Source of the DNA: a virus
Lineage: Duplodnaviria; Heunggongvirae; Uroviricota; Caudoviricetes
Strand: one strand, 5' to 3'
IMG/VR virus record: IMGVR_UViG_3300031134_000466
Length of the DNA stretch: 64,000 nt
Part shown: positions 14,051 through 62,312 of the stretch, one piece after another
Position numbering within the stretch: position 1 is the stretch's first letter
Layout of the letters: the number at the start of each line of letters is the position of its first letter
Made by a program: the position numbers and the translations under genes
The notes under the pieces: generated by a model
Told to the model about the DNA's origin: nothing
Database searches by the model: none
Seen by the model: only the letters and a program-made list of their open reading frames with translations

Positions 14051-14064
14051 GACAAATAATTCCT

Positions 14065-14104
14065 AAGGCTGAACGTTTTACTGATAAAGTAAACGTTCAG
14101 CCTT
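14065..14104 (+). terminator. hairpin terminator
   Basis: 14-bp arms aaggctgaacgttt / aaacgttcagcctt. Confidence 0.7.
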
Positions 14105-14127
14105 ATCTGTTTAACGAAAGAACCCTG

Positions 14128-21881: not shown

Positions 21882-23186
21882 TTGATTTCAACACTACGAC
21901 ACTCCCAGAAATTTCAAGACAGCTTTGTTGTCTGGATTTTTGTACTTCTTTTCGCCGGTCAGGGTTTCAGGAACCTAATCGGCCTCATCTGTTACGGCAC
22001 TATCAGCCTGGTGACTGTAAGCGTAGCCGTTTGGCTCTTTTGGAATACCTGGAGTAAACGCCGAACCCCGTTTTTGCTGGGTGCTTTTGTAACTTTAGCA
22101 GCTCTGTCCACAATTTGGTCCACTTACCGTCTGGAAACATTCATAGCCAGTATCATTCTGGCGGCCACCAGCCTCATAGGACTTTTAGTTGCCTCAGCTT
22201 ACAAATGGAAAAAACTGATAGTCCTTTTAGGTTACGGACTGCAAATCTGCGTGGTCGGCAGTTTAGTCTTTGAAACAATCGTCGCCACTGTGTTTAGGAG
22301 ACCAGTTCTACCTGTCTTCATGGAATTTGTGGGCCTTACTGACATTGAGAAAAATTCTGGTGTGTTGAACTGGTCAGAGAACAATTTGTTTGCAGGTGGT
22401 CCAATTCAGGGTTTCATGGGTAACAGAAACTTGTTAGGTTTTGTTGCATTGCTTCTAATTGTTGTGTCAGTAGTGACTTTGTTGGAGAAACTCACAAACA
22501 AATGGGTGAGCCTTAGCTGGATAGCTGTAGGGTTAGGAACACATTTTCTGACAGTCTCAGCTACCATCTCTTTGGCTCTGCTGGCTGTTGTCATCATCGT
22601 TGCTGGTGCGATGTTTATACGATTTACGCCAGAAAAGTTCAGACGGATAACATCCTGGTCCTTCGTGGGACTCTGTATCGTTCTTGGTGTTGCTGCGTTG
22701 AAGAACTACGACAAACTGTTTGGTGTTTTTGACCGTGACCCGAACCTTACTAACCGCACTGAAATCTGGAAACGAGTGGCTGATCTGGCTTTGCAGAAAC
22801 CTGAAGGTTGGGGATGGGTTAGTTACTGGCCTGTATGGAAAGAGCCTTTCAACGGAATACTCACATTAGGTGGAGTGCCTGTAGCTCATGCCCATAATGC
22901 ATATTTGGATGTATGGTTCCAACTGGGTGTAGTTGGCGTCATTCTTCTAGCAGCTATGACTTTGTACATTTTAGGAAGCTCTTGGCGTTTAGTGGAACAT
23001 GCAGGAAGGAGTTCAAGCTTCTTACCTCTTGGTTTGTTCCTTCTTGGTGGTTGCTTGTTCATTCAAGCTCTTACAGAATCCCGTCTGCTACTTGAGGGTA
23101 ATTGGATGCTGTTGACTGTGTTGCTTGTGTATACGCCATCTGCTTTCCGAAAAACAAACCTGAAGGCGTTAGAGCCGATATCGTAA
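21882..23186 (+). CDS. O-antigen ligase/Wzy_C-domain-like polytopic membrane protein
   Basis: 434 aa, about 10-12 TM segments. Loop motif 'HAHNAYLDVWFQLGVVG'. TTG start per the track. Confidence 0.65.
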   Translation: MISTLRHSQKFQDSFVVWIFVLLFAGQGFRNLIGLICYGTISLVTVSVAVWLFWNTWSKRRTPFLLGAFVTLAALSTIWSTYRLETFIASIILAATSLIGLLVASAYKWKKLIVLLGYGLQICVVGSLVFETIVATVFRRPVLPVFMEFVGLTDIEKNSGVLNWSENNLFAGGPIQGFMGNRNLLGFVALLLIVVSVVTLLEKLTNKWVSLSWIAVGLGTHFLTVSATISLALLAVVIIVAGAMFIRFTPEKFRRITSWSFVGLCIVLGVAALKNYDKLFGVFDRDPNLTNRTEIWKRVADLALQKPEGWGWVSYWPVWKEPFNGILTLGGVPVAHAHNAYLDVWFQLGVVGVILLAAMTLYILGSSWRLVEHAGRSSSFLPLGLFLLGGCLFIQALTESRLLLEGNWMLLTVLLVYTPSAFRKTNLKALEPIS

Positions 23187-34403: not shown

Positions 34404-35891
34404 TTAGCCTACGAAGGTTACTCCAGTAGTGGTTCTGTCATACTGTGTCCATGTTGTTCCGTTGGATGGTCCATAGAAATGGGTAGTCAAACTACCTGTC
34501 TTTGTATCAAACTCCAGAGTTCGTACAGGGTTGGTGGTGTTTGAATGGAATGTTCCCAGGTAAGAAACAATCTTGTTGCCGTTCACTCCCACATCTTCAC
34601 GGTAACCAGCTTCACCGACATGGCCAGATAAGACAACTTTGATGTTTGGGTACTGCTTGACAAGGTTGTCATACACATACTGAGCTGAGTTACTTCCATA
34701 ACTGGCTGACTGGTCAATACTTCCATCACCGTTCAAATACGAATGAGTGGAAACAATAACATTGTAGTCAGGATGTGCAGCTACGACAGTTTTTGCCCAG
34801 TCAACGACCTCAGTGCGTGGCCAGAGTTCCAGAGTCAAAACCAACCACTTTTTGTCAGCAGCGTTGAAAGTCTGGTAAGCATTGTCAACTTTTCCAGTTT
34901 CGAAGGTTGTGATACCTGGGTAACGTGAAGGACTGAAGTAGCTATTGAAAGTGGTGGTGTTTCGCACTAAAGTGCGAGTGTTCTTAGGGTCAGCAGCAGA
35001 ACCGCCAACACCTACAGCAGCTGTATCATGGTTTCCGATGGTAAGAGAATTCTGGATTTTGTTGTCATCTAACACCTTCATGGCTTTGGATGCAACAGCG
35101 TACTGTTCGTGATTTGGAGTATCCCAATTGACGACATCACCAGTATGGTTCACATATCGCAAATCTAAAGCGTTTTTGTTATCAACAAGCCATTGTGTAC
35201 GGTTCACAAATCGAGTGTCTGTTCCAACTTCTTGTTGGGTGTCTGGAATCACAGCCATTGTGAACTTGCCGTCAGCATCAGCAGGATTTACTGGCGGAGT
35301 TGTTGGTGGTGTAACAACAGGGGAAGGTTTAGCTCCGTAGAATGAGATTCCTTCGGCTGCCCAGCCGGCTGTTGTCAGGGCAGTTCTTTCGGCTTCAGTT
35401 GTCGCATAACGATGCTTACCACTTTTTTGGAAACGGTAGACTGGTTGGCTGCCAGAAAGGTTTTTGGTTGAAGCGTAGAAATTGATTCCTTGCTCTGTGT
35501 AACCATATTTACTTTGGGCAACGGCAAGTTCATTAGAGGAAGAAGATTTTGCTATCCAGATGAAATCGCCGTTCTTGTGAAGACGGTAGACTGGCACTAA
35601 CCCTGTTTTTTGGTCGTGGTTAGCTTTGAAAACAATCCCTTTGGTTTCTGTGAAGCCATAGCTGTTTTTAGCACTGTCAATTTCTTTTGAGTTGACAGTG
35701 AGTAGATTAGCTTGGCTTTTAGGGTTGATTGACTGATAAACATCTGTCGTCATTGAAGACAGAATAGATGCATCAGAGGGAGCGGTCGCAGCTGAAGCGG
35801 ATGTAGCTGTAGCGAAAGGTAGAACAAGTGTAGCTAATAGTACGACGCCTAAAGTCCTAAATCGGACAGGTTGCGTTTGATTGTGGTTCAC
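34404..35891 (-). CDS. secreted metallophosphoesterase with N-terminal repeat (DUF5648-like) modules
   Basis: 495 aa. Signal peptide 'VLLATLVLPFATATSASA'. Repeats 'YRLHKNGDFIW..GINFYAS' and 'YRFQKSGKHRY..GISFYG'. 'HTGDVV', 'GNHDTA', 'LSGHVGE'. GTG start with an AAAGGGG RBS. Confidence 0.75.
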   Translation of the reverse strand: MNHNQTQPVRFRTLGVVLLATLVLPFATATSASAATAPSDASILSSMTTDVYQSINPKSQANLLTVNSKEIDSAKNSYGFTETKGIVFKANHDQKTGLVPVYRLHKNGDFIWIAKSSSSNELAVAQSKYGYTEQGINFYASTKNLSGSQPVYRFQKSGKHRYATTEAERTALTTAGWAAEGISFYGAKPSPVVTPPTTPPVNPADADGKFTMAVIPDTQQEVGTDTRFVNRTQWLVDNKNALDLRYVNHTGDVVNWDTPNHEQYAVASKAMKVLDDNKIQNSLTIGNHDTAAVGVGGSAADPKNTRTLVRNTTTFNSYFSPSRYPGITTFETGKVDNAYQTFNAADKKWLVLTLELWPRTEVVDWAKTVVAAHPDYNVIVSTHSYLNGDGSIDQSASYGSNSAQYVYDNLVKQYPNIKVVLSGHVGEAGYREDVGVNGNKIVSYLGTFHSNTTNPVRTLEFDTKTGSLTTHFYGPSNGTTWTQYDRTTTGVTFVG

Positions 35892-35979
35892 GTATTACCC
35901 CTTTATTATCCCCTGTTTAGGTTGCAAAGGTAATCGGCTTCTATCCCTCGTTTGGGGGTCAAGAACGTGAATTTATTAT

Positions 35980-36441
35980 TTAATACTCTGTACGCAGCTG
36001 ATACTCGCCCCAAGTCGTGAAAGGCTGAACAGAATTGTCCAGGATAATTCGTTCAGCAACATCACCAGATGCAAGCTTCTCATAAAATGCTGCATCGTCA
36101 AAACCAGCATTCGCCGCATCATAACGGTCAGCAGAAAACACAATACGGTCAACACGAGACCATAAAGCAGCACCTAAACACATAGGGCAAGGTTCACAGG
36201 ATGAATAAAGAACACATCCTTCCAGGTTGAACACTTTAGCCTTGGCACAAGCAGCCCTAATAGCATTCACTTCCGCATGAGCGGTAGGGTCAATCGTGGT
36301 GGTGACAGAGTTTCCCGCAGCAACCGTGCTGCCGTTAGGGAAAAGGATTACAGCCCCAAAAGGTCCACCATTGCCGCTTTCCACGTTCTTTACAGCTGTA
36401 TCAATAGCAAGCTTAAGATAGTCAGCGTCGTTCATATTCAA
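35980..36441 (-). CDS. CDA-fold nucleobase/nucleoside deaminase, GuaD (guanine deaminase)-like
   Basis: 153 aa. 'GGPFGAVI', 'DPTAHAEVNAIR', 'CEPCPMCLGA', 'GFDD'. Confidence 0.7.
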   Translation of the reverse strand: MNMNDADYLKLAIDTAVKNVESGNGGPFGAVILFPNGSTVAAGNSVTTTIDPTAHAEVNAIRAACAKAKVFNLEGCVLYSSCEPCPMCLGAALWSRVDRIVFSADRYDAANAGFDDAAFYEKLASGDVAERIILDNSVQPFTTWGEYQLRTEY

Positions 36442-36509
36442 AACTCCTCAATAGTGACAACTTCATTTTATGGCACTTTTCAGGTAAAAGCAAATCGCAG
36501 CAACAAACC

Positions 36510-36518
36510 TGTTAGAAT
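36510..36518 (+). promoter_or_regulatory. extended -10 (TGTTAGAAT), near-leaderless
   Basis: TAGAAT lies 8 nt upstream of ATG 36527. Confidence 0.55.
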
Positions 36519-36526
36519 GAATCATC

Positions 36527-37519
36527 ATGCTTACAGTCTCCTCTTCCCTGAAAAGCTATAAAGCGTCAGGGTTATTCTTTGGGAGTCTACTACTCATACT
36601 GGCAGCGTTTGCTCTACTCCCTAAGAAGAGCTTCACTGGGTTGCTGAATGATTTCTTCATGCTTAGCTTCAGTGTGATTGTTGAATCTGTGCCGTTCTTG
36701 ATCCTGGGTAGCGTCCTTGCTGCACTGGTGCAAATTTTTGTCTCGTTTACCTGGCTGACAAGAATACTCCCTAACAACCCTCACCTGAAACGCTTCTTCC
36801 TGTCATTGTTCGGTGTTTTCTTACCGGTATGCGAATGCGGGAACATTCCTATGGCTCGGGGACTGATGCTAAAAGGATTCACTGTGTCAGAAGCAATGGT
36901 CTTTTTGCTCGCTGCACCCATTGTTAACCCTGTCACCATAATCACAACCCATCAAGCTTTTGGATGGGATTCAGGCATCCTCATTTGCCGTATTTTAGGT
37001 GGACTTGCCATAGCGAACTTCATTGGCTGGCTCTTCTCCCGCCAACAAGATGCAACCCAGTTTCTCACCCCTTCATTCGAACATTCATGTCGAGTTGAAG
37101 CAGGCGTTGTAGAAAAGAAAAGCATTTTCAACATAGCAAACAAAACAGCCTCGGAGCTGATCCTTCTATTCCCAGCTTTGATCGTGGGTGCAGGCATTGC
37201 TGCGTTCATTCAAGTGATTGTACCGAGGAGTACATTGTTAGCCATTGGTGAAGACCCAGTACTCTCAGTTCTTGTTATGCTCCTACTGGGAATCATCGTA
37301 GCAATATGTTCAAACGTGGATTCATTCTTTGCTCTATCATTCGCTAGCACTTTCACGAATGGAAGCCTCATCACATTCCTTCTGGCAGGTCCCTTAGTCG
37401 ATGTGAAGATGATCGCATTGATGAAATCCACTTTCACATCCAGAGCTGTCCTATATATTGTACTACTGGTGGTATGTGCCAGCGTTAGCATTGGGTTAGG
37501 AGTCAATCTTGTCTCTTGA
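36527..37519 (+). CDS. DUF318/YcgR-type permease
   Basis: 330 aa, polytopic. Signature 'CECGNIPMARGL'. Confidence 0.7.
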   Translation: MLTVSSSLKSYKASGLFFGSLLLILAAFALLPKKSFTGLLNDFFMLSFSVIVESVPFLILGSVLAALVQIFVSFTWLTRILPNNPHLKRFFLSLFGVFLPVCECGNIPMARGLMLKGFTVSEAMVFLLAAPIVNPVTIITTHQAFGWDSGILICRILGGLAIANFIGWLFSRQQDATQFLTPSFEHSCRVEAGVVEKKSIFNIANKTASELILLFPALIVGAGIAAFIQVIVPRSTLLAIGEDPVLSVLVMLLLGIIVAICSNVDSFFALSFASTFTNGSLITFLLAGPLVDVKMIALMKSTFTSRAVLYIVLLVVCASVSIGLGVNLVS

Positions 37520-38231
37520 TAAGATAACTAAAACCCTACAATGGGTGACACTTGCAGTAACTATGAGCTTCATCCTCTGGCTCATATTCACAGGTAAGCT
37601 GTCATTGTTCATTCATCCTCGATATAACCTCTTCACCGCCATCATGGTTATTCTGGGAGCAGCTTTAGTGACAATAAGCTTTACTAAGAAGCAACCTTCA
37701 GGACATGAACATCAGCATGATGAGAAAAAGAACCCAAAACAGAAGCTGGTGATTGCTGCAATCGTTTTGGTAGCCACTTCCAGCATGTTCGTTGTCGCCC
37801 CAGGAGCTTTATCTTCCACCTTTGCTTCAGATAAAGTTGTCAACGGAGGGGTAGTGTCCACAAATCAAGACCTTGCTAATCCTGAAGGAGACTACCAAGA
37901 TTTTACTGTCAAAGACTGGGCTTTACTTGCCGAATCTGACATCAAGTATGAGTTCACAGGAAAAGAAGTCGATTTAGTAGGATTTGTTGTTCCCATTGAT
38001 GAAAACAATTTCTACTTGTCTCGATTTGTTGTGTACTGCTGTGCTGTTGACGCCCAACCAGTTGGTGTGCCAGTACATCAAGAGAATTGGCAGCAAGATT
38101 TCCAAGAAAATGATTGGGTTGAAGTGAAAGGGGAGTTCAGTGATACTACAAGTAACAGCGGTTATCAAGCTGAGCTCATCCCTGTTCGTGTTACTAAAAC
38201 TGTAGAACCAGAGGCTCCTTATGAGTACTGA
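37509..38231 (+). CDS. TIGR03943/DUF1980 (YcgQ-like) membrane protein
   Basis: 240 aa. Two N-terminal TM segments, His-rich loop 'SGHEHQHDE', C-terminal 'VVYCCAVDAQPVGV'. Overlaps the permease gene by 11 nt. Confidence 0.65.
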   Translation: MSLDKITKTLQWVTLAVTMSFILWLIFTGKLSLFIHPRYNLFTAIMVILGAALVTISFTKKQPSGHEHQHDEKKNPKQKLVIAAIVLVATSSMFVVAPGALSSTFASDKVVNGGVVSTNQDLANPEGDYQDFTVKDWALLAESDIKYEFTGKEVDLVGFVVPIDENNFYLSRFVVYCCAVDAQPVGVPVHQENWQQDFQENDWVEVKGEFSDTTSNSGYQAELIPVRVTKTVEPEAPYEY

Positions 38232-39276
38232 ACAAACCAAATCTCAGCATAGTCTAAACCGCAGTATAGTGGTGTCATTGTTACTCGTCCTGGCGTTAGT
38301 TGCTGCTTTGTTCGTCAAAGATGGCATCGCTCAGCAAACAAAAGTAAACAATGTTGACGGCTACTATTTAGCTGATTCCTCTTTCTACCATCAAAAAGGA
38401 ACCAACCCAGGTGAGGAAGTCTACTCTGGTCCAGAGTCAATTCTTTCTTTTTCATTGACTCATTCACATGCGTTACTCGTTACCTCTGCCCAGAAGATAC
38501 TACTTGTAGATTTAGCTTCAGGTAAATCTGAGGACATCACTACTCCTGGTTGTTCTGTACTTCAGACCAGCTCTGCATTCGACAGGTATTTTGTGTACCT
38601 AAACTCTTGCGATACAGACACAACAGCCCAACGTTTTGTTTCATATGACACTCAAACGAATAAGGAAACAACAACAGAAGTACAAGCATCCTCACAATGG
38701 CAAGTGAACCCTAAAACAGGAAACGTTGTATACCAGGCTGGTTTGACCAGTACTGTTTATTCAGGAAACATGGATAAGTCTGGCCAATGGCAACCGTTTG
38801 TGCAGTTAGGTCAGATGGGTTATCTCGGAGGTTTCTACAACAAAGGGAACACTTTGTTCTTATGGGGAACCGAAGCTGATGCTTCAACCCCAATCTCGTA
38901 TAACCTAAACGACTTGAATACTGTGAAGCTAGTTTTACCTGAAGCTGCAGATTCTAAAACACAGATAGCGTCAGGAACAACTGCTATTGATAGAACCAGT
39001 ATTTTGTGGGCTGTGACCGCTTATTCTCCAGAAGAAGATGCATATTACGAGTACGTCATCAAAGACACAAATCTTGGAGCTACTTTACTGGTTGACTTAT
39101 CTACTCTCGGGTATACGTTAGGTAACCGATTATCGTATGATGCAAAGAATGATGTAGTTGCAATTCCGGTGACACAGTACAACGGCGGGGATGTGTCTAC
39201 ACTGTTTGCTGATGCAGAAACAGGAAAAATTCTTTACCAGTTGCAGTTCACTACAGCGTTTCAATTTGCACCTTAA
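38221..39276 (+). CDS. membrane-anchored/secreted protein of unknown function
   Basis: 351 aa. N-terminal TM segment 'IVVSLLLVLALVAALFV'. Overlaps the upstream gene by 11 nt (third gene of the operon). Confidence 0.55.
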   Translation: MSTEQTKSQHSLNRSIVVSLLLVLALVAALFVKDGIAQQTKVNNVDGYYLADSSFYHQKGTNPGEEVYSGPESILSFSLTHSHALLVTSAQKILLVDLASGKSEDITTPGCSVLQTSSAFDRYFVYLNSCDTDTTAQRFVSYDTQTNKETTTEVQASSQWQVNPKTGNVVYQAGLTSTVYSGNMDKSGQWQPFVQLGQMGYLGGFYNKGNTLFLWGTEADASTPISYNLNDLNTVKLVLPEAADSKTQIASGTTAIDRTSILWAVTAYSPEEDAYYEYVIKDTNLGATLLVDLSTLGYTLGNRLSYDAKNDVVAIPVTQYNGGDVSTLFADAETGKILYQLQFTTAFQFAP

Positions 39277-40809: not shown

Positions 40810-40819
40810 AAGATTGGTT

Positions 40820-41173
40820 ATGACGTTTATGAATACTACAACACTATGGCGCCCAGTAGGACCAAAAGAACTGGAACTAATAGCTCAGACTGGATTTACC
40901 CATTTCCCACCCAGATTACCAGAACAACCCATTTTTTATCCTGTGCTGAATCAGGAATACGCAGTAAAGATTGCTAAAGAATGGAACGTAAAACATGATG
41001 GTGCTGGTTATGTGAGCGAATTCCAAGTAGAAACCAGCTTTTTGTCTAATTACCCTATCCAGCAAGCTGGAGGTAGAACCATTCTCGAATATTGGATACC
41101 TGCAGAGGATTTAGATGCTTTCAACGATTCGATAGTGGGTATTATTAAAATCGTCAACACTTTTCTTTCTTGA
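40820..41173 (+). CDS. conserved hypothetical protein
   Basis: 'LWRPVGPKELELI..FPPRLPEQPIFYPVLN' looks like a widespread bacterial family that I cannot name with confidence. Confidence 0.5.
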   Translation: MTFMNTTTLWRPVGPKELELIAQTGFTHFPPRLPEQPIFYPVLNQEYAVKIAKEWNVKHDGAGYVSEFQVETSFLSNYPIQQAGGRTILEYWIPAEDLDAFNDSIVGIIKIVNTFLS

Positions 41174-41175: not shown

Positions 41176-41215
41176 CCTTTATGTTGTAGTTTTTTACAGA
41201 TACTACAACATAAGG
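41176..41215 (+). terminator. hairpin terminator
   Basis: cctttatgttgtagt / actacaacataagg (1-nt bulge). Confidence 0.7.
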
Positions 41216-41293
41216 AACCGCCTAATTTGCTTGTCATTGAAATATAATGTAAGCTGGTGCTAACGTTCAAAATACGGAAAGATTACTGTTATT

Positions 41294-42706
41294 ATGCCAA
41301 TTGGTCAAAAAATTGTAGGAGTAGCTGTAGCAGCTACAGTTTCATTAAGTGCGGTAGCTTTTGTGGCTTCTCCAGCACTTGCTGATGAGGCAGCTCCTAC
41401 GACAACACAAGACGTTCCTACGGAAGTAGAAACTGGGACTGAGGGAGTTGCTCCAGCAGCTGACCCTGTTGAGGAAGAAGTACCTGCTCCTGAGGTTGCA
41501 GTACCAGAAGAGACTGAACCTGAAGTAGTTGTTCCATCTGAAGAAGCACCAGTAGAAGAAGTACCTACTGAAGAAGCACCTGTTGAAGAAGTTCCTGTCG
41601 AAGAGGTCCCTGCAGAGGAAAATGCTTTGGTAGCAACAACATTTGCTTTGACTTTTGGTGGTGACACATCAACTGTTCCTGAAAACCTGACACTTGAAGT
41701 TCACTATACTTCTTTGGTGAATGATGAAGTGCAGGATAATGTTGTTTACCTAACCCGCGATGTCCCTCCTACTGCCATTGACATCCCTGAAGGTTCTACA
41801 GTTCAGGTTTCAGTAACTGGTTTACCTGACATCGAAAACACAACACTAAACCCAGTTGTTCTGCTCAATGGGAATCCTTTGCCTGCTGATGGTGTTACAT
41901 TAGTGTCTGGTGAAGTGTATGATTTTTCTGTAGCTATTGATGCAGTAACAGAAAACCCTGCACCTTCAGACGCTCCTGCTATTCAGCAGGATGAAGCTCT
42001 TCCTGTTGATGTAGAAAACCTTATTTCTGTAAATGCTGCAGTTGCTTTCCCTGGTGACACTATAACTGTTTCTGCTTCAAGCGTTGCTACTCCTGAATCT
42101 TGGGTTTCAGTATGGCTTCATTCCACTCCTGTGCTTCTCGCTGGTTGGGTTCAGACTGACGTGAATGGAAACATTGATGTCACAATTCCAGCAGGTACCG
42201 AAACTGGTGAACACCGTATTGTTGTGTCTGACGCAGACAACAACATTGTAGGTTGGACAAGCATTCTTGTTGTCAACCAGGATGATGAAGTTATCGTTCC
42301 TGGAGAAGACCCTGAAACCCCTGTAGACCCTGAAACGCCTACAGACCCTACCCTTCCTGTGGACCCTACAACTCCTACTGACCCAGAAGTGCCAGTTACT
42401 CCTACAAACCCAGATGCAGGAGTAACTCCTGAGACTGAACCAGAAACAACTCCTCGTGACCCTTCTTCTGGCGGAGTATCCATCATTCCTGAGGAAGAGT
42501 TCAACACTGGAGGTTACGACAATGATGAGTTGGGTAACGTAACAGACCGTGGTGACCGCTCAGACATTAACACCAGAGCTTTGGCTTACACTGGTTCTGA
42601 CTCCAACTCCACGGTGTTCCTCACCTTCATGGGTGGTCTCATGTTGATTGGTGGTTTCGTCCTCCGCAGACTTCCTCGTCTGCGTGCTGCACGTCGCAAT
42701 AGCTGA
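41294..42706 (+). CDS. cell-wall-anchored surface protein with LAxTG sorting signal
   Basis: 470 aa. Signal peptide ending 'SPALA|DE', acidic Pro/Glu/Val repeats, Pro/Thr repeats, and C-terminal 'LAYTG' + TM segment + 'RRLPRLRAARR'. Confidence 0.85.
   Translation: MPIGQKIVGVAVAATVSLSAVAFVASPALADEAAPTTTQDVPTEVETGTEGVAPAADPVEEEVPAPEVAVPEETEPEVVVPSEEAPVEEVPTEEAPVEEVPVEEVPAEENALVATTFALTFGGDTSTVPENLTLEVHYTSLVNDEVQDNVVYLTRDVPPTAIDIPEGSTVQVSVTGLPDIENTTLNPVVLLNGNPLPADGVTLVSGEVYDFSVAIDAVTENPAPSDAPAIQQDEALPVDVENLISVNAAVAFPGDTITVSASSVATPESWVSVWLHSTPVLLAGWVQTDVNGNIDVTIPAGTETGEHRIVVSDADNNIVGWTSILVVNQDDEVIVPGEDPETPVDPETPTDPTLPVDPTTPTDPEVPVTPTNPDAGVTPETEPETTPRDPSSGGVSIIPEEEFNTGGYDNDELGNVTDRGDRSDINTRALAYTGSDSNSTVFLTFMGGLMLIGGFVLRRLPRLRAARRNS
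41468..41624 (+). repeat. low-complexity (E/P/V) repeat region in the surface protein
   Basis: 'EEVPAPEVAVPEETEPEVVVPSEEAPVEEVPTEEAPVEEVPVEEVPAEE'. Confidence 0.7.
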
Positions 42707-42720
42707 GAATAGCAAATAAG

Positions 42721-42751
42721 AAAAACCTGAGTCACCACGACTCAGGTTTTT
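42721..42751 (+). terminator. intrinsic terminator
   Basis: aaaaacctgagtc / gactcaggttttt, with an A-run and a T-run flanking. Confidence 0.85.
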
Positions 42752-42761
42752 CTTATTTAAT

Positions 42762-42792: not shown

Positions 42793-44685
<1,893 letters not shown>

Positions 44686-45511: not shown

Positions 45512-46171
45512 ATGGACAACATTAAAGTAGAAGCTAACGGTAAATGGGTCAAGCTGGTAGAAAAAGCAGCATATGATGCACCTCCTACGTGGCATTTGGA
45601 AACCCCAGAGGGCGAGTTCCATATTTCTGTACCTATGCAGTCCACTCAGTTTGAATTGGTAAAACAATACCAGCGTGTATATGACAGTCAGAAAGATATA
45701 GGAATTCCTATTGCTGACGACTTAATGGTTGAGTTAGTTGAATCCGACTGGGGTTTTGTCGGTAACGAAGATGATGTATGGAAGTTCATCTTTACTTCTG
45801 TTGGTTATGACCAGAAGAATCTGATTGAGGACAAAGCAGAGCTGAAAGAACTGGTTCAGGATGCAGCTGAGCAGTTAGAAATCCTCAAACATGATGTTGA
45901 AGCCTCTGCTATCAGCTTCGACCCTGAAGTTGACACTAACACTGGCGATTTCTTTGAGTTTACATCTGCAACATTGAGTGATATGACAAAGCTACTTGCT
46001 GAAACTAAAAAGTCTTTGAAGCGTTACAAGGTACTTTTAGAAGCAGCTGAAAGATGGGTAGCTAAAGAATCGATGGGCCTGAACTGGACTAACGAGACAT
46101 TCCTTAGTAACTATGGTGAAACTCCTGAAGCTAAAAGGCTAATGGCTACGTACGAAGCACACCAAAAGTAG
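45512..46171 (+). CDS. hypothetical protein
   Basis: 219-aa acidic ORF with a CAGGAG RBS. Confidence 0.6.
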   Translation: MDNIKVEANGKWVKLVEKAAYDAPPTWHLETPEGEFHISVPMQSTQFELVKQYQRVYDSQKDIGIPIADDLMVELVESDWGFVGNEDDVWKFIFTSVGYDQKNLIEDKAELKELVQDAAEQLEILKHDVEASAISFDPEVDTNTGDFFEFTSATLSDMTKLLAETKKSLKRYKVLLEAAERWVAKESMGLNWTNETFLSNYGETPEAKRLMATYEAHQK

Positions 46172-51757: not shown

Positions 51758-52729
51758 TTAAATTTCTCGCAGCTGCACAATTGTCAGTTCAGTTGCTTCA
51801 CCTTTTTTATTGACCCTTTTGACTTTCACATCATTAGCAACAACTTCGAATTTTGCACCACGAGGAATGATGAACTCATACTCTCTTGGACCTTGCGATG
51901 AAATAGCTGTGATTGGGGCTCCACTTTTTGTAAGAATCTGTAAAGAAACATTGATGTTGTCTTTGGAAGGTAAATCTTGAGGATTCAAACTTGTCGATAA
52001 GAAGAATTTAGGTTCGTAAGTGCTACCAACAGGGAAATGTTTGTCGAGGTTTTGAGCGTCATCACTTGAATGATATCCTTTTTCATCATAAAGATGATGA
52101 CGGCGGTAAACCATCACGCCTTCTTCTGCTGGTTCGTGTTTAGCAAAAGCATCATCCAGGATAGTTACAGCTGCATCCAACGTTTCAGGTGCAACATTTT
52201 TTGCGTACGGATTTGTTGAAGCTGAAAGATGGCCGTTGATGTCAGCATAGCCATCTTCTGAATACCAGCGAAGAGTAGCTATTTCAGTATCATCCAGTTT
52301 GGCACTCCAGTTTTGGGAATCTGCCATGCTGTTCAACAGGTCAGCATGTTTGTAATGCATCTCTTCAAGAGTGTCACCAGTTTCGAAAAACGTCGGAGAA
52401 GTGTAAGCAGCTTTTTGTGCTTTTTTGTGGGTGATGACTTTACGATCCGCAACAGCAGCTAATCTTCTGGCTCGTTCTTGAGAAAGCGCTTCGTATTCTT
52501 CTGCATGCCATTCCTGCGTTGGATTCTTTTTGATCTGTCTTTCCAAAGACTTTAGATAAGCTGGTGTTAGTTTGTACTCTGCTTCAGCTTTTCTTCTTAC
52601 CGCTATTAGCTTCTCAAGCTCTGGGTCTTTGCGGTTGTCCATGAAAGCACTGAGAACCGCTTGATGAGCTTTAGCGTAGGTGGCTGCAGCATGAGCTGAA
52701 CAACGGGGACCAGGTTTTGGGTAACACAT
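51758..52729 (-). CDS. R-S-ExE ADP-ribosyltransferase 3 with N-terminal C-x7-C-x2-H module
   Basis: 323 aa. 'MCYPKPGPRCSAHAA' is identical to the ART 2 N-terminus. 'VMVYRRH', 'LSTSLN', 'REYEFIIPRG'. Confidence 0.7.
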   Translation of the reverse strand: MCYPKPGPRCSAHAAATYAKAHQAVLSAFMDNRKDPELEKLIAVRRKAEAEYKLTPAYLKSLERQIKKNPTQEWHAEEYEALSQERARRLAAVADRKVITHKKAQKAAYTSPTFFETGDTLEEMHYKHADLLNSMADSQNWSAKLDDTEIATLRWYSEDGYADINGHLSASTNPYAKNVAPETLDAAVTILDDAFAKHEPAEEGVMVYRRHHLYDEKGYHSSDDAQNLDKHFPVGSTYEPKFFLSTSLNPQDLPSKDNINVSLQILTKSGAPITAISSQGPREYEFIIPRGAKFEVVANDVKVKRVNKKGEATELTIVQLREI

Positions 52730-55746: not shown

Positions 55747-56412
55747 ATGAAGAACACATACGGAATTCTCGGCGGATATGGGGCGGTAGCCACCCTACAT
55801 CTCCAGCAGCTGCTCGTGAAGCGAGTCCTCAGCACTGGACAGTACGCTGATATTGCCTTCCCTCGTATGGTAATTTCCAATCTGCCTGAAGACATCATCA
55901 ATGCTGAAGGACATATCAGCAGCCTTGGTAGCCTGCGGACTGAACTTGGTAAAACAGCTCCTCTATTCCAAGGAGCCACAGATGTTTATGTCATTTGTAA
56001 CACCTTCCATGTCGAAGAAGAGTTCATGCAGCGAGTCTTCGCTAACAAACTACATTCTGTTCCGGCTTTAACCAGTCAAGCTGTCGTAGATGCTGGATAC
56101 TCCAAACCTCTTATCGTAGGTTCCAAGCTGACTTCTCAGGATAACCTGTACAGTCATACAGCTTACACCTCAACTAACATGTTTGCGGATGAGCTAATCA
56201 CTGCTGGAATGAAGTACCAGACATCTCACTCTCAGCTGGCAGATGTCATAGCTGCTGCCAAACAGGCTAGCTCAGACTGCATTGTTTTAGGTTGCACAGA
56301 TTTGTCCGTGATGGCTGACACTCTCCGAACCATGACTGCACTTCCCGTAATCGACTCCGTTGAAGCAGTCGCCAACCATATTTACAACTCCCATACGAAA
56401 GATGAATCGTGA
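55747..56412 (+). CDS. Asp/Glu/hydantoin racemase-superfamily enzyme (two-Cys type)
   Basis: 221 aa. 'YGILGGYGAVAT', 'VYVICNTFH', 'IVLGCTDLS', 'PVIDSV'. Confidence 0.75.
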   Translation: MKNTYGILGGYGAVATLHLQQLLVKRVLSTGQYADIAFPRMVISNLPEDIINAEGHISSLGSLRTELGKTAPLFQGATDVYVICNTFHVEEEFMQRVFANKLHSVPALTSQAVVDAGYSKPLIVGSKLTSQDNLYSHTAYTSTNMFADELITAGMKYQTSHSQLADVIAAAKQASSDCIVLGCTDLSVMADTLRTMTALPVIDSVEAVANHIYNSHTKDES

Positions 56413-57374
56413 AAGTCTACAACGACACAGTAACCATGACTGCAGAGCTGGCTCAGACCTTAGAGCAATTGAGAGCTGTGCGGGCTTTTGACGCTACAGA
56501 ATGGATTGAGCGTAAGGTTGTCCTAATCAACCAGTACTTCGCTCAGAACAAGCTCTCAGGGGCTGTAGTAGGTGTTTCTGGTGGCATCGACTCAGCTGTA
56601 GCCCTTTCACTTCTTGTCAAAGCATCCCAGCAAGACAACAGCCCAATTCAGAAGATTGTCCCTCTTCTACTTCCTGCTCTTTCTTACGAAGGTGCAACTA
56701 ACCAAGACGGGGCAGTTCAGCAGGCTACTGACCTATGCCAGAACCTTGGACTGAAGCCAGCTGTTTTCACTAAGCTCACATCTCTTTCCCAAGTGATTAC
56801 TTCTGAACTGGAAGACATTCTGGACATCAAATCAACAGACTGGGCTAAAGGACAGCTAGTGGCTTACACCAGAACCCCAGTCCTGTACAACACCTGCTCA
56901 ATCCTTACTGACGCCGGCTACCCTGCACTGGTTGTAGGAACCACAAACCTTTCCGAAGGTGGATACCTCGGTTATGTCGGAAAAGCTTCAGATGGTATGG
57001 TTGACCTGCAAGTAATTTCTGATTTGTACAAGTCAGAAGTGTACAAAGTCGCAGCTTTACTTGAAGTTCCTGAAAGCGTTATGAAAGCTACTCCTACAGG
57101 GGACATGTACGACGGTCGTGAAGATGAAACAGTTTTCGGAGCTTCTTACGACTTCGTAGAGCTGTTTCATCTATGGCTACAGGCACGCAGCGTCCCATTG
57201 AAACTTCTTCGAGATGCCCACTTTGTCACAGGAGCTAAAAACCTGCAAAAACTGCACGACTACAACGCACATAAGTACACCTACGGAACTCCATCCATTC
57301 ACCTGGACATTATGAACGCAGCAATCCCAAACGGATGGAACAATCAGCCTTGGAGGCCCCAGAATGGCAACTAA
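56409..57374 (+). CDS. divergent NadE-family PP-loop amidotransferase (NAD or NMN synthetase-like)
   Basis: 321 aa. 'GVSGGIDSAV', 'VVGTTNLSEGGYLGYVGKASDGMVD', 'ATPTGDMY..EDETVFGASYDFVE'. GTGA overlap with the upstream stop codon. Confidence 0.7.
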   Translation: MKVYNDTVTMTAELAQTLEQLRAVRAFDATEWIERKVVLINQYFAQNKLSGAVVGVSGGIDSAVALSLLVKASQQDNSPIQKIVPLLLPALSYEGATNQDGAVQQATDLCQNLGLKPAVFTKLTSLSQVITSELEDILDIKSTDWAKGQLVAYTRTPVLYNTCSILTDAGYPALVVGTTNLSEGGYLGYVGKASDGMVDLQVISDLYKSEVYKVAALLEVPESVMKATPTGDMYDGREDETVFGASYDFVELFHLWLQARSVPLKLLRDAHFVTGAKNLQKLHDYNAHKYTYGTPSIHLDIMNAAIPNGWNNQPWRPQNGN

Positions 57375-58104
57375 ATTCGTAAACCAAGTCAACTTCGAAA
57401 TCCCTACTGTTGCTCACACAGTTCAAGTGAGACCGTTCCCTGAACTTGACCGTACAGCGGTAGTGATTCCTGAACTCGTCCCTGCCGAGGAAAAAGTCAG
57501 TATCATGGCAGCGTTGGAAGACTCCAACTGGCAGCCAGTGTCAGTGACAGGAATGTCAGGAAACTGGAAAGAAGGTGACCCTATTGGTTCTTACCGTGCT
57601 TCCAACTACACTCCTGAGTATGCTGAAGTTCTGTGGAACAGAATCAAACACGGTTTCCCTACTGTACGCACATTCACAGATGCTGATAACACCGACTTCG
57701 ATGGTCATGAGCTGTGGGAACCCATTGGCGTGTCACCTCTTCTTCGATTCATCAAATATGAAGAAGGCGGCTGGCTTGTAGTTCATTACGATGCTCCGTA
57801 TGTCGAATCAGAAGATGTTCGCACACTCCAAAGCCTTGTCGTATATCTGGAACACCCAGGTGAACTTCACGGAGGAGCAACCCGCTACCTTCATGACCCT
57901 CAGGCTCATCTTCCTGTTACTCAGCGTGAACTCAACGACGAATACCGTGCTGCTGAAGAAGATGAAGTGAGACTCCGCTTCGCTCCTGAAGATGGAACAG
58001 CTGTAGTCTTCGACCACCGCCTTCTGCATGACGCTGAAAAGGTCACAGGAACTGGCACAAAAACAATCATTCGAACAGACATTATGTACAGGAAAGTACG
58101 ATGA
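57364..58104 (+). CDS. 2OG-Fe(II) oxygenase (P4H-like)
   Basis: 246 aa. 'VVHYDAP' (HxD), 'VVFDHRLLHDAE' (distal His), 'KTIIRTDIMY'. 11-nt overlap with the upstream gene. Confidence 0.65.
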   Translation: MATKFVNQVNFEIPTVAHTVQVRPFPELDRTAVVIPELVPAEEKVSIMAALEDSNWQPVSVTGMSGNWKEGDPIGSYRASNYTPEYAEVLWNRIKHGFPTVRTFTDADNTDFDGHELWEPIGVSPLLRFIKYEEGGWLVVHYDAPYVESEDVRTLQSLVVYLEHPGELHGGATRYLHDPQAHLPVTQRELNDEYRAAEEDEVRLRFAPEDGTAVVFDHRLLHDAEKVTGTGTKTIIRTDIMYRKVR

Positions 58105-59624
58105 ATTTAGACAGATACTTCCAGGCTCTTTACGAAAGAACCAATAGTAAGCAGGACTTAGTAACAGCAGGTTGGATTGAAAACAAGCCGCTACGCATCA
58201 ACCCGCATGTGCGATTCTACACAACCCCTCTGCAAGCTATTCGTGACGCGGGCAAAAAGGACGTATCTGTCTTGTTCTACCCTGGTTGTTTCGCTCCAGT
58301 CCATGAAGGTCACCTTGGGGCTATGAGGCTGGCCAAAGAAGCAATTGAAACCCAGACAGGCGAGACTGTAGCTGCAGGCTATTTCACCCCTGACCATGAT
58401 AACTACATCATGCGTAAAACTCATGACGAACGTTTCATCGCACCTAACCGCATCGCTCTTCTCCATGAAGCAGTAGAAAATGAACCCTGGATGCAGGTGG
58501 ACGACTGGGCTTCACTGTACGCTCCCACTGATTTGAACTTCACAACACTATATGACAGGTTCAACCTTTACCTGAAGCGTTGGTTACCTGACTTGAACAT
58601 CAAGCTGTACATGGTTTTTGGTGGAGACAACTACATGTTTGCGAACAGTTTCACTGAATACGGACACGGTGTTTGTGTGCCAAGAGAAGGAGCTCAGATG
58701 GACTTGAGCTTAGTTCACCCTGATGCCAAAAAGCGGGTTATTTTCAGCGAAAAAGTCTGTACAGACCATTCTTCTACAGCTGCACGAGCAGCAAACCCTG
58801 GAGCTATCGATATCCACGGCAGAAGTGCATTAGGTTCCACCTATGTACTTCGTGAAGACTTGGACTTAGCTTTCCGAGAGAACCCTACTACTTACTCGAA
58901 CAAAATTATTGCTGACTCTGTAGCTATTCTTTTGCAGGCGCATGTGCCGTACGAGAAAGTCAAAGTGAAAAGAGTTCCCATTATCAGGCAGATGGCTAAC
59001 CATACTGAGACAGAGAATGTGATTTCCTTAGACTGTTTCTGGAAAGCAGAGCAGAACCTTGAAATTTCTCGCCTGTTTTCAACTGGAGGCAGTCAGCACC
59101 ATGCCATCAAATACGTCAACCGTCCTGGCTCGCCGGCTCTTCAAGAGCAGGTAGAAGCAATTCCTGCTGGAGTGTACACTCTCGTAGATGATGACATTGC
59201 TACTGGGGAGACAATGAGTTTTGTTTCCAACATGCTGGAAACGCACGATGTTGTTGTTGATAAGCAGGACAGCCTGATTTCCGAGCTGGGTTCTGACTTG
59301 TACGATGTAGTTGATTTGCGAGACTTTGTTCTTGGAACCGAACACGGCGGACTGACGGTTGCAACTCCTACAGGAGAAACGACAAGAATGCCTTACATCG
59401 CTCCTTATGTGAATCTTGTAAGCCGTGCTCGCATTAACCCTGACCGGGTGTTCAGTTTCTCCACCGAACTGTGGAAATTGAACTATGCACTTTACCGTAA
59501 TACGAAAACTACAGTAGGTGACATCAAAGAACATCAGGACTTCACCATGTTCGGTTTTGCCGAAGACATGACAGTGGCTGACTTGTGCCAAAAGCATCTT
59601 CAATTGATGACTGAATTGCAGTAA
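58101..59624 (+). CDS. NadD/NMNAT-type adenylyltransferase fused to a type I phosphoribosyltransferase domain
   Basis: 507 aa. 'GCFAPVHEGHL' ((H/T)xGH), 'HSSTAAR' (SxTxxR), C-terminal PRPP-binding loop 'YTLVDDDIATGETM'. ATGA overlap with the upstream gene. Confidence 0.75.
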   Translation: MNLDRYFQALYERTNSKQDLVTAGWIENKPLRINPHVRFYTTPLQAIRDAGKKDVSVLFYPGCFAPVHEGHLGAMRLAKEAIETQTGETVAAGYFTPDHDNYIMRKTHDERFIAPNRIALLHEAVENEPWMQVDDWASLYAPTDLNFTTLYDRFNLYLKRWLPDLNIKLYMVFGGDNYMFANSFTEYGHGVCVPREGAQMDLSLVHPDAKKRVIFSEKVCTDHSSTAARAANPGAIDIHGRSALGSTYVLREDLDLAFRENPTTYSNKIIADSVAILLQAHVPYEKVKVKRVPIIRQMANHTETENVISLDCFWKAEQNLEISRLFSTGGSQHHAIKYVNRPGSPALQEQVEAIPAGVYTLVDDDIATGETMSFVSNMLETHDVVVDKQDSLISELGSDLYDVVDLRDFVLGTEHGGLTVATPTGETTRMPYIAPYVNLVSRARINPDRVFSFSTELWKLNYALYRNTKTTVGDIKEHQDFTMFGFAEDMTVADLCQKHLQLMTELQ

Positions 59625-62238: not shown

Positions 62239-62268
62239 TCACAAAAACGTGCTTTTTCGTCAATATGA

Positions 62269-62277
62269 CGATATACT
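62269..62277 (+). promoter_or_regulatory. -10 element (CGATATACT)
   Basis: 35-nt leader with an AAGGAAGG RBS before ATG 62313. Confidence 0.5.
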
Positions 62278-62312
62278 GTAATAAGAATGGTCTAAGGAAG
62301 GAAACCCGTATC

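What the first reader, a model, noticed from the sequence alone, without database searches (positions are those of the whole stretch)
41294..42706. Element-encoded sortase substrate with actinobacterial LAxTG signal
The protein has a signal peptide (..SPALA|DE). It has two low-complexity spacer regions, one E/P/V-rich and one P/T/D-rich, flanking a folded middle part. It ends with a textbook sorting signal: 'LAYTG' + hydrophobic helix + 'RRLPRLRAARR'. LAxTG is the motif used by class E sortases of Actinobacteria. The gene is a self-contained cassette with its own promoter region and an intrinsic terminator at 42721-42751. A mobile element that plants a covalently anchored wall protein on its host suggests surface remodelling, such as superinfection exclusion, adhesion or masking of receptors.
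Basis: partly seen in the sequence, partly recalled or inferred. Interest (0 to 1): 0.55.

Follow-up and report, generated by a model that had tools for sequence, protein, structure and literature searches.

The report
Giant-phage gene for wall-anchored host protein
A gene carried by a giant bacterial virus (relatives assemble into 0.6-0.9 million-base contigs) encodes a very acidic secreted protein whose tail signal should make the infected actinobacterial host's own sortase enzyme bond it covalently to the cell wall; what it does on the surface has not been tested.

Summary
ORF 41294-42706 (+, 470 aa) has a Sec signal peptide, two acidic proline-rich spacers, two beta-sandwich domains and a complete sorting signal (LAYTG, 19 hydrophobic residues, RRLPRLRAARRNS). 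It is the only one of 282 ORFs in the window with L[PA]xTG.

It is a real, constrained gene. Against orthologs at ~90% nucleotide identity, dN/dS is ~0.09. The signal peptide has 0 nonsynonymous changes and the sorting signal 1, against 13 synonymous. A 31%-identical homolog at the same locus in a diverged relative ends in LAETG.

The anchor-proximal domain belongs to a family found just before LAxTG or LPxTG signals in large surface proteins. All ten genome matches are Actinomycetota, mostly Microbacteriaceae.

The "element" is a giant phage. An rIIA/rIIB pair lies just left of the window on a 788,683-bp relative, and the window carries T4-type RNA-repair, nucleotide and NAD genes. Its Hsp70 is closest (73-75%) to Microbacteriaceae DnaK.

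The gene is an accessory cassette. It is absent from a syntenic sister lineage, has a 98-nt invariant leader and a strong terminator.

Sortase anchoring is well supported. The proposed role (receptor masking, exclusion or adhesion) is inferred. No sortase was seen, and the host is unidentified.

The parts
41176..41215 (+). Hairpin after the upstream 119-aa ORF (14-bp stem). Probably that ORF's terminator. Its left arm marks where similarity to L014/L015 ends.
   Evidence: dG -17.1 kcal/mol, z -7.5. The alignment shows the left arm is absent from L014/L015.
41196..41293 (+). Invariant 98-nt promoter and leader region of the cassette. It includes a perfect -10 hexamer TATAAT (41243-41248) and a GGAAAG ribosome-binding site (41276-41281).
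   Evidence: 98/98 identical to L015 and 96/97 to L014, against 109/119 for the downstream intergenic region and dS ~0.4 in the CDS. No Rfam family and no significant fold.
41294..42706 (+). Coding sequence of the 470-aa secreted, sortase-signal-bearing protein.
   Evidence: Orthologs are in L001, L002, L014 and L015. Overall dN/dS is 0.08-0.09.
41294..41383 (+). Sec signal peptide, residues 1-30, with predicted cleavage ALA|DE.
   Evidence: Sequence features. 0 nonsynonymous against 5-7 synonymous changes versus L014/L015. P0003 has an equivalent signal peptide ending ...TPAFA|AT.
41384..41623 (+). Acidic E/V/P-rich spacer 1 (residues 31-110) with 15/30-nt tandem repeats. Its length varies between strains.
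   Evidence: PTEEA indel in L015.
41624..41953 (+). Sub-domain A (residues ~111-220). All-beta and lineage-specific; the only homolog that aligns across both sub-domains is P0003.
   Evidence: dN/dS 0.04.
42008..42283 (+). Sub-domain B (residues ~239-330). An Ig-like beta-sandwich belonging to an actinobacterial family that sits next to the wall anchor (core WVSVWLHSTP...GEHRIVV...IVGWT).
42284..42580 (+). P/T/D/E-rich spacer 2 plus an acidic pre-motif segment (residues 331-429), probably spanning the wall. Repeat indels between strains.
   Evidence: DPVIPV and NTGGYDNDELG indels.
42581..42703 (+). Cell-wall sorting signal: LAYTG (42581-42595), a 19-residue hydrophobic helix (42608-42664) and the tail RRLPRLRAARRNS (42665-42703).
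   Evidence: 1 nonsynonymous against 13 synonymous changes. LAETG in P0003. Pfam PF00746 17.5 bits, below threshold.
42714..42758 (+). Intrinsic, bidirectional-looking terminator that closes the cassette.
   Evidence: dG -28.1, z -8.9. The stem is identical in L014/L015 while the 5-nt loop is flipped, ACCAC to GTGGT.
42826..44685 (+). Context: phage-borne Hsp70/DnaK directly downstream. In the sister lineage it directly follows the 119-aa ORF's ortholog.

Best explanation
The gene is an accessory ('moron'-like) cassette of a giant phage that, going by its host-like genes, infects an actinobacterium related to Microbacteriaceae.

Proposed pathway:
1. The protein is exported through Sec and its signal peptide is removed after ALA30.
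2. The C-terminal hydrophobic helix and arginine-rich tail hold it in the membrane.
3. The host's housekeeping class E sortase cuts LAYT|G and joins the threonine to the peptidoglycan precursor.
4. The result is a covalently wall-bound, extremely acidic protein: 402 residues with 81 D+E against 6 K+R. Proline-rich spacers hold two Ig-like domains away from the wall.

The anchor-proximal half (sub-domain B, spacer and signal) is of the type used by actinobacterial surface proteins. Sub-domain A is specific to this phage lineage and is the likely business end.

The most likely role is to change the surface of the infected or phage-carrying cell. That could mean masking or blocking receptors against other phages or against the phage's own progeny, or altering adhesion.

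Shown: the gene architecture, selective constraint, cassette behaviour, phage carriage and actinobacterial affinity. Inferred: sortase processing, and the host's sortase class. Speculative: the surface function.
For: Architecture:
- The tripartite signal is complete and unique in the window.

Constraint:
- dN/dS 0.09 overall at dS 0.40.
- Signal peptide: 0 nonsynonymous, 5-7 synonymous.
- Sorting signal: 1 nonsynonymous, 13 synonymous.
- The diverged syntenic homolog P0003 (31% identity) keeps the signal peptide, both sub-domains and LAETG + helix + RLRATT.

Anchor-domain family:
- Of 149 sub-domain B relatives, 78 carry L[PAS]x[TS]G signals: 50 LAxTG and 22 LPxTG.
- The domain ends a median of 55 aa before the C-terminus.
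- Genome matches are 10/10 Actinomycetota, mostly Microbacteriaceae, and the sorting signals detected on 5 of them are LAATG (3), LASTG and LSQTG.

Class E specificity for LAxTG: PMC5148588.

Phage carriage:
- rIIA (phrog_612, 2e-64) and rIIB (phrog_609, 7e-50) sit next to the SNF2 gene on the 788,683-bp relative.
- Pfam Phage_T4_rIIB in the 696-kb member.
- The window holds two Rnl1 genes, PNKP, a dNMP kinase-intein-methylase, YqaJ exonuclease, RNR, two dCMP deaminases, MazG, NadE, PARP and ARTs, and no tRNA or Rfam RNA.

Host affinity:
- Hsp70 is 73-75% identical to Microbacteriaceae DnaK.
- RNR beta's best phage hits are Gordonia and Mycobacterium phages, ~62%.
- SNF2 and YqaJ hits are mostly actinophages.

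Cassette behaviour:
- Absent, with no remnant, from the syntenic sister lineage.
- Invariant 98-nt leader and conserved terminator stem.
- GC3 27.8% against 43.6 +/- 7.4% for window genes.
Against: - No sortase gene was found in the window or in the ~30 kb of flanks seen, and the host is not identified, so no enzyme-substrate pair is demonstrated.
- The Pfam LPXTG-anchor model is below threshold and NCBIfam is silent.
- There is no homology to any known exclusion or adhesin protein. Fold matches are generic Ig-like domains.
- No virion genes (capsid, portal, terminase) were seen in the parts of the replicon I could read, and IMG/VR holds none of these contigs.
- rII genes suggest a T4-like virulent lifestyle, in which long-term 'conversion' of the host would not apply.
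- The sister lineage does without the gene, so it is dispensable.
Confidence: 0.6

Rival explanations
1. Same anchoring mechanism, but the function is adhesion or aggregation rather than exclusion. The displayed Ig-like domains and polyanionic stalk make infected cells stick to particles, to neighbouring host cells or to a eukaryotic surface, which helps phage spread or host persistence.
For: Relatives of sub-domain B sit on large surface enzymes and adhesin-like proteins (BNR sialidase, He_PIG, LamG, fn3). The precedent SasX is a prophage-borne LPXTG colonisation factor (PMC7047976). The same phage carries pilin-like proteins with swapped C-terminal DUF285 and He_PIG domains.
Against: No recognisable ligand-binding domain. 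Sub-domain A has only one homolog that aligns across both sub-domains. Net charge of about -75 argues for repulsion or shielding rather than sticking.
Confidence: 0.25
2. The protein is only C-terminally membrane-anchored, or is shed, and is not processed by a sortase. On this reading the LAYTG is a relic inherited with the captured host module.
For: Pfam Gram_pos_anchor is below threshold. No sortase was seen. 40 of the 71 sub-domain B relatives without a motif still have a helix plus RR tail.
Against: The motif and tail are the most constrained part of the gene, with 1 nonsynonymous against 13 synonymous changes. The 31%-identical homolog retains L-A-x-T-G at the same place. A long proline-rich wall-spanning spacer precedes the motif.
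Confidence: 0.1
3. The replicon is not a phage but a small cellular genome, or a megaplasmid, of a reduced Microbacteriaceae-related organism. The protein would then be an ordinary chromosomal surface protein.
For: Contigs of 0.6-0.88 Mb. Cellular-type genes are present: DnaK, signal peptidase I, Wzy_C, ABC transporter, permeases. None of the contigs is in IMG/VR. No capsid or terminase was seen.
Against: An rIIA/rIIB pair. T4-type Rnl1 x2, PNKP, dNMP kinase and YqaJ. No tRNA, rRNA or any Rfam RNA, and no translation genes, in the 64 kb plus the ~10 kb of flank read beyond its left edge. Hsp70 lacks the grpE-dnaJ partners. About half of the ORFs are orphans.
Confidence: 0.08
4. It is a virion decoration or tail-fibre-like Ig-domain protein, not a host-surface protein.
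For: Ig-like domains are common on phage capsids and fibres. BFVD fold hits include structural proteins.
Against: A cleavable Sec signal peptide plus a C-terminal sorting signal with a transmembrane helix cannot be reconciled with cytoplasmic virion assembly. BFVD matches are weak (TM about 0.4-0.5, E about 1e-3). No PHROG hit.
Confidence: 0.03

Closest known systems
SasX/SesI, the LPXTG surface protein carried by the phiSPbeta-like prophage of Staphylococcus (PMC7047976)
   Same: A phage-borne accessory gene whose product carries a signal peptide and a sortase sorting signal and is displayed on the host's wall. It is dispensable and variably present.
   Different: SasX has an LPXTG signal for class A sortase, in Firmicutes, on a temperate prophage. 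Here the signal is LAxTG (class E type), the affinity is actinobacterial, the carrier is a giant rII-bearing phage, there is no sequence similarity, and the function is unknown.
Class E sortase substrates of Actinobacteria (Streptomyces chaplins ChpA-C; PMC5148588), and the large LAxTG surface proteins of Microbacteriaceae found here (L006, L007, L010, L011)
   Same: An LAxTG pentapeptide followed by a helix and an arginine-rich tail. Sub-domain B is 31-43% identical (alignment A2) to the domain that precedes this signal in those proteins.
   Different: Those are chromosomal, in genomes of 61-71% GC, and usually 650-1,900 aa with enzymatic or adhesin domains. This one is 470 aa, has GC3 of 28%, is phage-borne and has a private N-terminal domain.
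Phage-encoded surface-exposed exclusion proteins: Ltp lipoprotein of S. thermophilus TP-J34 (PMC3952083), and T5 Llp and lactococcal Sie2009 (own knowledge)
   Same: A phage-encoded, Sec-exported protein tethered to the outside of the host cell. This is the functional model for 'what it may work like'.
   Different: Those are tethered by a lipid or a membrane helix, not by sortase. No homology (PHROGs none). Exclusion is not demonstrated here.
E-set / IPT-TIG-type Ig-like domains (for example domain 3 of galactose oxidase 4unm/2wq8, and the Ig-like domains of Bacteroides SGBP-B 6e57)
   Different: Similarity is at fold level only (8-25% identity), so no functional inference is possible.

Membership tests
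Sortase substrates (cell-wall sorting signal proteins) | N-terminal Sec signal peptide | tested here: met
   n-region MPIGQK, hydrophobic core, SPALA|DE with A at -3 and -1. Fully conserved in orthologs. This is a heuristic reading; no SignalP was run.
Sortase substrates (cell-wall sorting signal proteins) | C-terminal pentapeptide L-[P/A]-x-T-G, then a hydrophobic segment of about 15-25 residues, then a basic tail at the extreme C-terminus | tested here: met
   LAYTG at 430-434, a gap of 4, a 19-residue hydrophobic run, then RRLPRLRAARRNS. Same layout in P0003 (LAETG) and in 78 of 149 relatives.
Sortase substrates (cell-wall sorting signal proteins) | Match to a curated anchor model (Pfam PF00746, or the NCBIfam LPXTG anchor) | tested here: inconclusive
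   PF00746 gives 17.5 bits against a gathering score of 20, E 0.004. No NCBIfam hit. From my own knowledge, these models are dominated by Firmicutes LPXTG sequences.
Sortase substrates (cell-wall sorting signal proteins) | Actual cleavage between T and G and amide linkage to peptidoglycan | not testable with these tools
   Needs biochemistry.
Class E sortase substrates | Alanine at P3 of the motif (LAxTG) | tested here: met
   LAYTG is conserved in 4 orthologs and LAETG in P0003. Specificity is described in PMC5148588.
Class E sortase substrates | A cognate class E sortase in the producing cell | not testable with these tools
   No sortase in the window (TLxTC scan and Pfam). The host is unidentified. 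Only its phylogenetic neighbourhood (Microbacteriaceae) is inferred.
Phage accessory cassette ('moron') | An independent transcription unit (own promoter and terminator) inserted between conserved phage genes | tested here: met
   Invariant 98-nt leader with TATAAT and a -28 kcal/mol terminator. The sister lineage has the flanking genes adjacent with no remnant. Promoter activity itself was not tested.
Phage accessory cassette ('moron') | Composition differs from that of the surrounding genome | tested here: met
   GC3 27.8% against 43.6 +/- 7.4% for 55 window genes, about 2.1 sd. Overall GC is similar.
Known superinfection-exclusion proteins (Ltp, Sie, Llp types) | Sequence or profile homology to a described exclusion family | tested here: not met
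   No PHROG, Pfam, NCBIfam or INPHARED match.
Known superinfection-exclusion proteins (Ltp, Sie, Llp types) | Blocks adsorption or DNA entry of phages | not testable with these tools
   Needs an expression host and phages.
Giant (jumbo/mega) tailed phage, as carrier | Phage hallmark genes on the same replicon | tested here: met
   rIIA and rIIB next to SNF2 on L024. Phage_T4_rIIB on L027. T4-type Rnl1, PNKP and dNMP kinase. Capsid, portal and terminase were not seen, because only about 85 kb of the replicon was readable.

The most novel reading that the evidence does not exclude
A previously undescribed clade of actinobacterial mega-phages rebuilds the envelope of the infected cell through several host pathways at once. 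Their contigs span 0.60-0.88 Mb, and the largest exceed the ~735 kb quoted as the largest known phage genomes. The routes would be:
- a polyanionic protein handed to the host's class E sortase (this gene);
- a set of type IV pilin-like proteins with interchangeable C-terminal domains;
- the phage's own signal peptidase I;
- a Wzy/O-antigen-ligase-like polymerase.

The LAxTG cassette would be one exchangeable module of this 'virocell surface' programme.
Probability: 0.3. Interest if true: 0.75.

Novelty: new variant of a known kind. Interest (0 to 1): 0.5.

Why it matters
Phage-borne sortase substrates are known from temperate phages of Firmicutes such as SasX. There they change colonisation and virulence.

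This case would extend the idea in three ways: to the class E (LAxTG) pathway, to Actinomycetota, and to a giant rII-bearing phage.

If the protein is really wall-anchored during infection, it shows that a virus can use the host's covalent surface-display machinery. It also gives a concrete candidate for how mega-phages control superinfection or cell-cell contact.

It further flags a family of very large uncultivated phage genomes that deserve full analysis.

Tried and rejected
1. Sortase in the window. The only TLxTC-containing candidate (13993-14343) is 116 aa with no Pfam hit, and the neighbouring 13538-14050 ORF is a dCMP deaminase.
2. Close relatives in INPHARED phages, IMG/VR and GTDB genomes, using the whole protein as query: none.
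3. Solved-structure homologs by sequence: only a weak SGBP-B match.
4. AF2 on the whole middle region without an alignment gave pLDDT 61.6, too low for a fold search. The afdb50 fold library was unavailable.
5. The sigma-70 consensus scan gave no convincing promoter. The leader motifs do not recur elsewhere in the window, so no phage-wide promoter class could be assigned.
6. The conserved leader as a riboswitch or known RNA: no Rfam family and no significant fold.
7. Sample accessions and contig names gave no hits in the paper library.
8. Walking beyond the right edge of the window gave only 1.3 kb more.
9. The cellular-genome reading (Tropheryma-like or CPR-like small genome) was considered seriously after the 789-kb contig appeared. 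It was down-weighted once rIIA/rIIB were found.
This is a lead only and is superseded by the database search.
Full report
**1. Observation**

- It starts with a typical Sec signal peptide: MPIGQK, a hydrophobic core, then SPALA|DE.
- Next comes an E/V/P-rich spacer (residues 31-110: E 30%, V 20%, P 18%).
- Two all-beta sub-domains follow (about 111-220 and 239-330).
- Then a P/T/D/E-rich spacer (331-395) and an acidic segment.
- It ends with LAYTG (430-434), a 19-residue hydrophobic run and RRLPRLRAARRNS.
- Both spacers are built from short DNA tandem repeats.
- Of 282 ORFs of at least 50 aa in six frames, this is the only one containing L[PA]xTG at all.
- The mature anchored product would be 402 residues with 81 acidic and 6 basic residues and no cysteine.
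- The terminator is real and strong: 42714-42758, a 20-bp stem, dG -28.1 kcal/mol, z = -8.9.
- Pfam's LPXTG-anchor model scores just under its threshold (17.5 against 20 bits) and NCBIfam is silent. Membership therefore rests on the sequence features rather than on curated models.

**2. It is a real gene under selection, and the targeting signals are its most constrained parts**

The identical gene is on an ENA contig (L002), and a 98% copy is on a Logan contig (L001). Two JGI contigs about 90% identical in nucleotides carry orthologs of 484 and 492 aa (L014 and L015).

Nei-Gojobori estimates for the window against L015:
- Overall: dS 0.40, dN 0.035, dN/dS 0.09.
- Signal peptide: 0 nonsynonymous against 5 synonymous changes.
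- Residues 430-470: 1 nonsynonymous against 13 synonymous, dN/dS 0.02.
- The spacers change mainly by gain or loss of whole repeat units.

**3. A diverged homolog keeps the design**

An exhaustive phmmer search with residues 129-335 found 393 proteins at E<1e-3. Apart from the 98% copy P0001, only one of them, P0003 (E 6e-25, about 30% identity), aligns across essentially the whole of both sub-domains.
- Read from its upstream TTG, P0003 has a signal peptide, both sub-domains and a T/P/V-rich spacer. It ends in LAETG, a helix and SRLRATT.
- It lies on a 3-kb contig of 41.5% GC, next to a 68%-identical ortholog of the window's RNA ligase and a 25%-identical homolog of window gene 45512-46171.
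- So a distant relative of the same replicon carries the same kind of protein at the same locus.

**4. The anchor-proximal half comes from the actinobacterial surface-protein repertoire**

- The remaining hits, with the partial exception of P0094, match sub-domain B only (consensus ...GEWVSVWLHSTPxLLGxWxQV...G.HRIVVQDA.G.VIGWT.ITV). It usually lies near the C-terminus of proteins up to about 3,000 aa that carry BNR-sialidase, 5'-nucleotidase, M1-peptidase, LamG, fn3 or He_PIG domains.
- The domain ends a median of 55 residues before the C-terminus.
- 78 of 149 relatives have a recognisable sorting signal: 50 LAxTG, 22 LPxTG and 5 LSxTG. A small residue followed by an acidic one often comes after the G, as in the target's 'SD'.
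- A genome scan with the core motif returned ten loci, all Actinomycetota and mostly Microbacteriaceae (Microbacterium, Leifsonia, Rhodoglobus, Lacisediminihabitans). These have 61-71% GC, and the sorting signals detected on five of them are LAATG (three), LASTG and LSQTG.
- With an alignment, AlphaFold gives a confident Ig-like beta-sandwich (pLDDT 94.6).
- I read sub-domain B as a stalk module and sub-domain A as the lineage-specific functional part. This is an inference.
- LAxTG as the class E sortase signal of Actinobacteria is documented in PMC5148588.

**5. What the 'element' is**

The window has no tRNA and no Rfam RNA. Its gene content is typical of large phages:
- an SNF2 helicase;
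- YqaJ fused to an RNase T-type exonuclease;
- a dNMP kinase-intein-C5 methylase fusion;
- RNR beta, two dCMP deaminases, MazG and NT5C;
- two T4 Rnl1-type RNA ligases and a T4-type PNKP;
- NucS and RNase H;
- two NadE genes and an NMNAT-like gene;
- a PARP and two ADP-ribosyltransferases.

Evidence from related contigs:
- The RNA ligase led to contigs of 65 kb and 788,683 bp that are about 90% identical to the window.
- The SNF2 helicase defines a family on contigs of 603, 638, 696, 789, 821 and 879 kb.
- On the 789-kb contig, the two genes immediately left of the SNF2 gene, just outside the window, are rIIA (phrog_612, 2e-64) and rIIB (phrog_609, 7e-50).
- The 696-kb member has the same pair, with a Pfam Phage_T4_rIIB hit.

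I conclude with about 85% confidence that the replicon is a giant phage. Two caveats apply. No capsid, portal or terminase gene lay in the roughly 85 kb I could read. None of these contigs is in IMG/VR.

**6. Host affinity**

- The phage's Hsp70 is 99-100% identical within its own lineage and 80% identical to a sister group on contigs of 828-883 kb. It is 73-75% identical to DnaK of Microbacteriaceae (Lacisediminihabitans, Leifsonia, Rhodoglobus, Microcella, Herbiconiux and others).
- It lacks grpE and dnaJ neighbours.
- RNR beta's best phage matches are Gordonia and Mycobacterium phages at about 62%, out of 2,007 records dominated by other hosts.
- SNF2 and YqaJ matches are also mostly actinophages.
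- From my own knowledge, NucS is largely confined to Actinobacteria and Archaea.

Together with section 4, this supports an actinobacterial host, probably related to Microbacteriaceae. The host itself is not identified.

**7. The gene is an exchangeable cassette**

- In the sister lineage (L021-L023), the neighbourhood is syntenic from the ADP-ribosyltransferases through SPFH, dCMP deaminase, RNA ligase, Hsp70, RNase H, NucS and PNKP.
- There, however, the ortholog of the 119-aa ORF (65% identity) is followed directly by Hsp70. No sorting-signal ORF and no tblastn remnant is present.
- In L014 and L015 the LAxTG gene is present but the 119-aa ORF is missing.
- In L003 the LAxTG gene is present but Hsp70 is missing.
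- The interval between the RNA ligase and Hsp70 is therefore a hot spot for gene gain and loss.
- The 98 nt before the ATG are 98/98 identical to L015, against 109/119 for the downstream intergenic region. They include a perfect TATAAT at 41243-41248. Similarity stops abruptly at about 41196.
- The terminator stem is unchanged while its loop is flipped.
- The gene's GC3 (27.8%) is about 2 sd below the window mean. It is far from the GC of the Microbacteriaceae genomes that hold its relatives, so any capture from a host was not recent.

**8. Mechanism**

The best-supported pathway has four steps:
1. Sec export and signal-peptide removal.
2. Retention by the C-terminal helix and basic tail.
3. 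Cleavage at LAYT|G by the host's class E sortase and transfer to the peptidoglycan precursor.
4. Display of two Ig-like domains on long, proline-rich, highly anionic spacers.

Steps 1-3 are inferred from a complete, conserved and strongly constrained signal. None has been shown experimentally.

What the displayed protein does is open. By analogy with phage-encoded surface-tethered exclusion proteins (Ltp, PMC3952083; T5 Llp, own knowledge), and given its charge, I favour masking or blocking of surface receptors. Adhesion is the main alternative, with SasX as precedent (PMC7047976).

**9. Novelty**

Phage-borne sortase substrates are a known kind. I found no relative of this protein in 50,697 deposited phage records. 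Papers combining jumbo or huge phages with sortase or LPXTG did not surface among the top results.

A class E-type substrate on a giant actinobacterial phage is therefore a new variant rather than a new principle.

The carrier may be the bigger story. Contigs of 789-883 kb exceed the ~735 kb given as the upper end of known phage genomes in a June 2026 review (PMC13282480). I could not verify the completeness of these assemblies or rule out misassembly.

Noticed in passing
Relatives of the window: L015/L024 (Ga0308164_10000007, 788,683 bp), L021 (Ga0540648_0000005, 828,331 bp), L026 (603,234 bp), L027 (696,453 bp). DnaK hits P0158, P0164 and P0165 lie on contigs of 858-883 kb.: The window belongs to a family of rIIA/rIIB-bearing replicons assembled as single contigs of 0.60-0.88 Mb from several samples. 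The largest exceed the ~735 kb cited as the largest known phage genomes (PMC13282480). None is in IMG/VR or INPHARED. Completeness and possible misassembly were not checked.
   Followed up: partly
window 21148-21762 (-) and 21882-23186 (+): The phage encodes its own signal peptidase I (Peptidase_S26, 1e-36), divergently paired with a 9-TM Wzy_C/O-antigen-ligase-like protein. An S26 peptidase is also present in the 603-kb family member (L026 5074-5784). Signal peptidase genes are nearly absent from deposited phages (9 weak records). It may process the phage's secreted proteins, this one included.
   Followed up: partly
window 1636-2751 (+) and 2847-4235 (+); L024 14777-16054: Two window paralogs, plus a third gene present only in the 789-kb relative, share a nearly identical pilin-like N-terminus (M.LNKVLQSSKAAIDLASIMVGVIIIGLIGGVI..AVIPWSQDKAAKQQL). 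Their C-terminal parts differ: unknown, DUF285 and He_PIG Ig. The 603-kb member has canonical prepilins (G|FTLVE, Pfam N_methyl). This suggests phage-encoded minor pilins or adhesins with swappable tips.
   Followed up: partly
window 34404-39276: A block absent from the sister lineage. It holds a secreted DUF5648 + metallophosphoesterase protein (34404-35891, -), an ArsP_1-type permease, a TIGR03943/DUF1980 permease subunit and a 351-aa membrane-anchored orphan. There the dCMP deaminase abuts the RNA ligase directly. This is a second envelope-directed insertion next to the LAxTG cassette.
   Followed up: no
window 18430-21147 (+): A single 905-aa ORF combining a T4-type dNMP kinase-like N-terminus, a Hint/intein domain and a C5 cytosine DNA methyltransferase.
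   Followed up: no
window 26372-27676, 30500-31465, 51758-52729 (-), 56409-57374, 58101-59624, 62265-63158: A dense NAD-related set: PARP+WGR, two ADP-ribosyl-exoenzyme-type transferases, two NAD synthases and an NMNAT-like cytidylyltransferase. This matches the 'NAD+ synthesis and utilisation' theme reported for jumbo phages (PMC11662467, title and abstract only).
   Followed up: no
window 42734-42738 compared with L014/L015: The 5-nt loop of the terminator hairpin is the exact reverse complement in the relatives (ACCAC against GTGGT) while the 20-bp stem is unchanged. This is a hairpin 'flip' rather than point mutation.
   Followed up: no
window 41294-42706: GC3 of the target gene is 27.8%, against 43.6 +/- 7.4% for 55 window genes, although its overall GC (47%) is typical. 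The cause (source, expression level or amino-acid-driven codon choice) was not resolved.
   Followed up: partly
window 40814-41173 (+): The 119-aa orphan ORF upstream of the cassette is present in the window, in L001 and in the sister lineage (65% identity), but is replaced by about 40 nt in L014/L015. This confirms that the RNA ligase-Hsp70 interval is a gene-exchange hot spot.
   Followed up: partly
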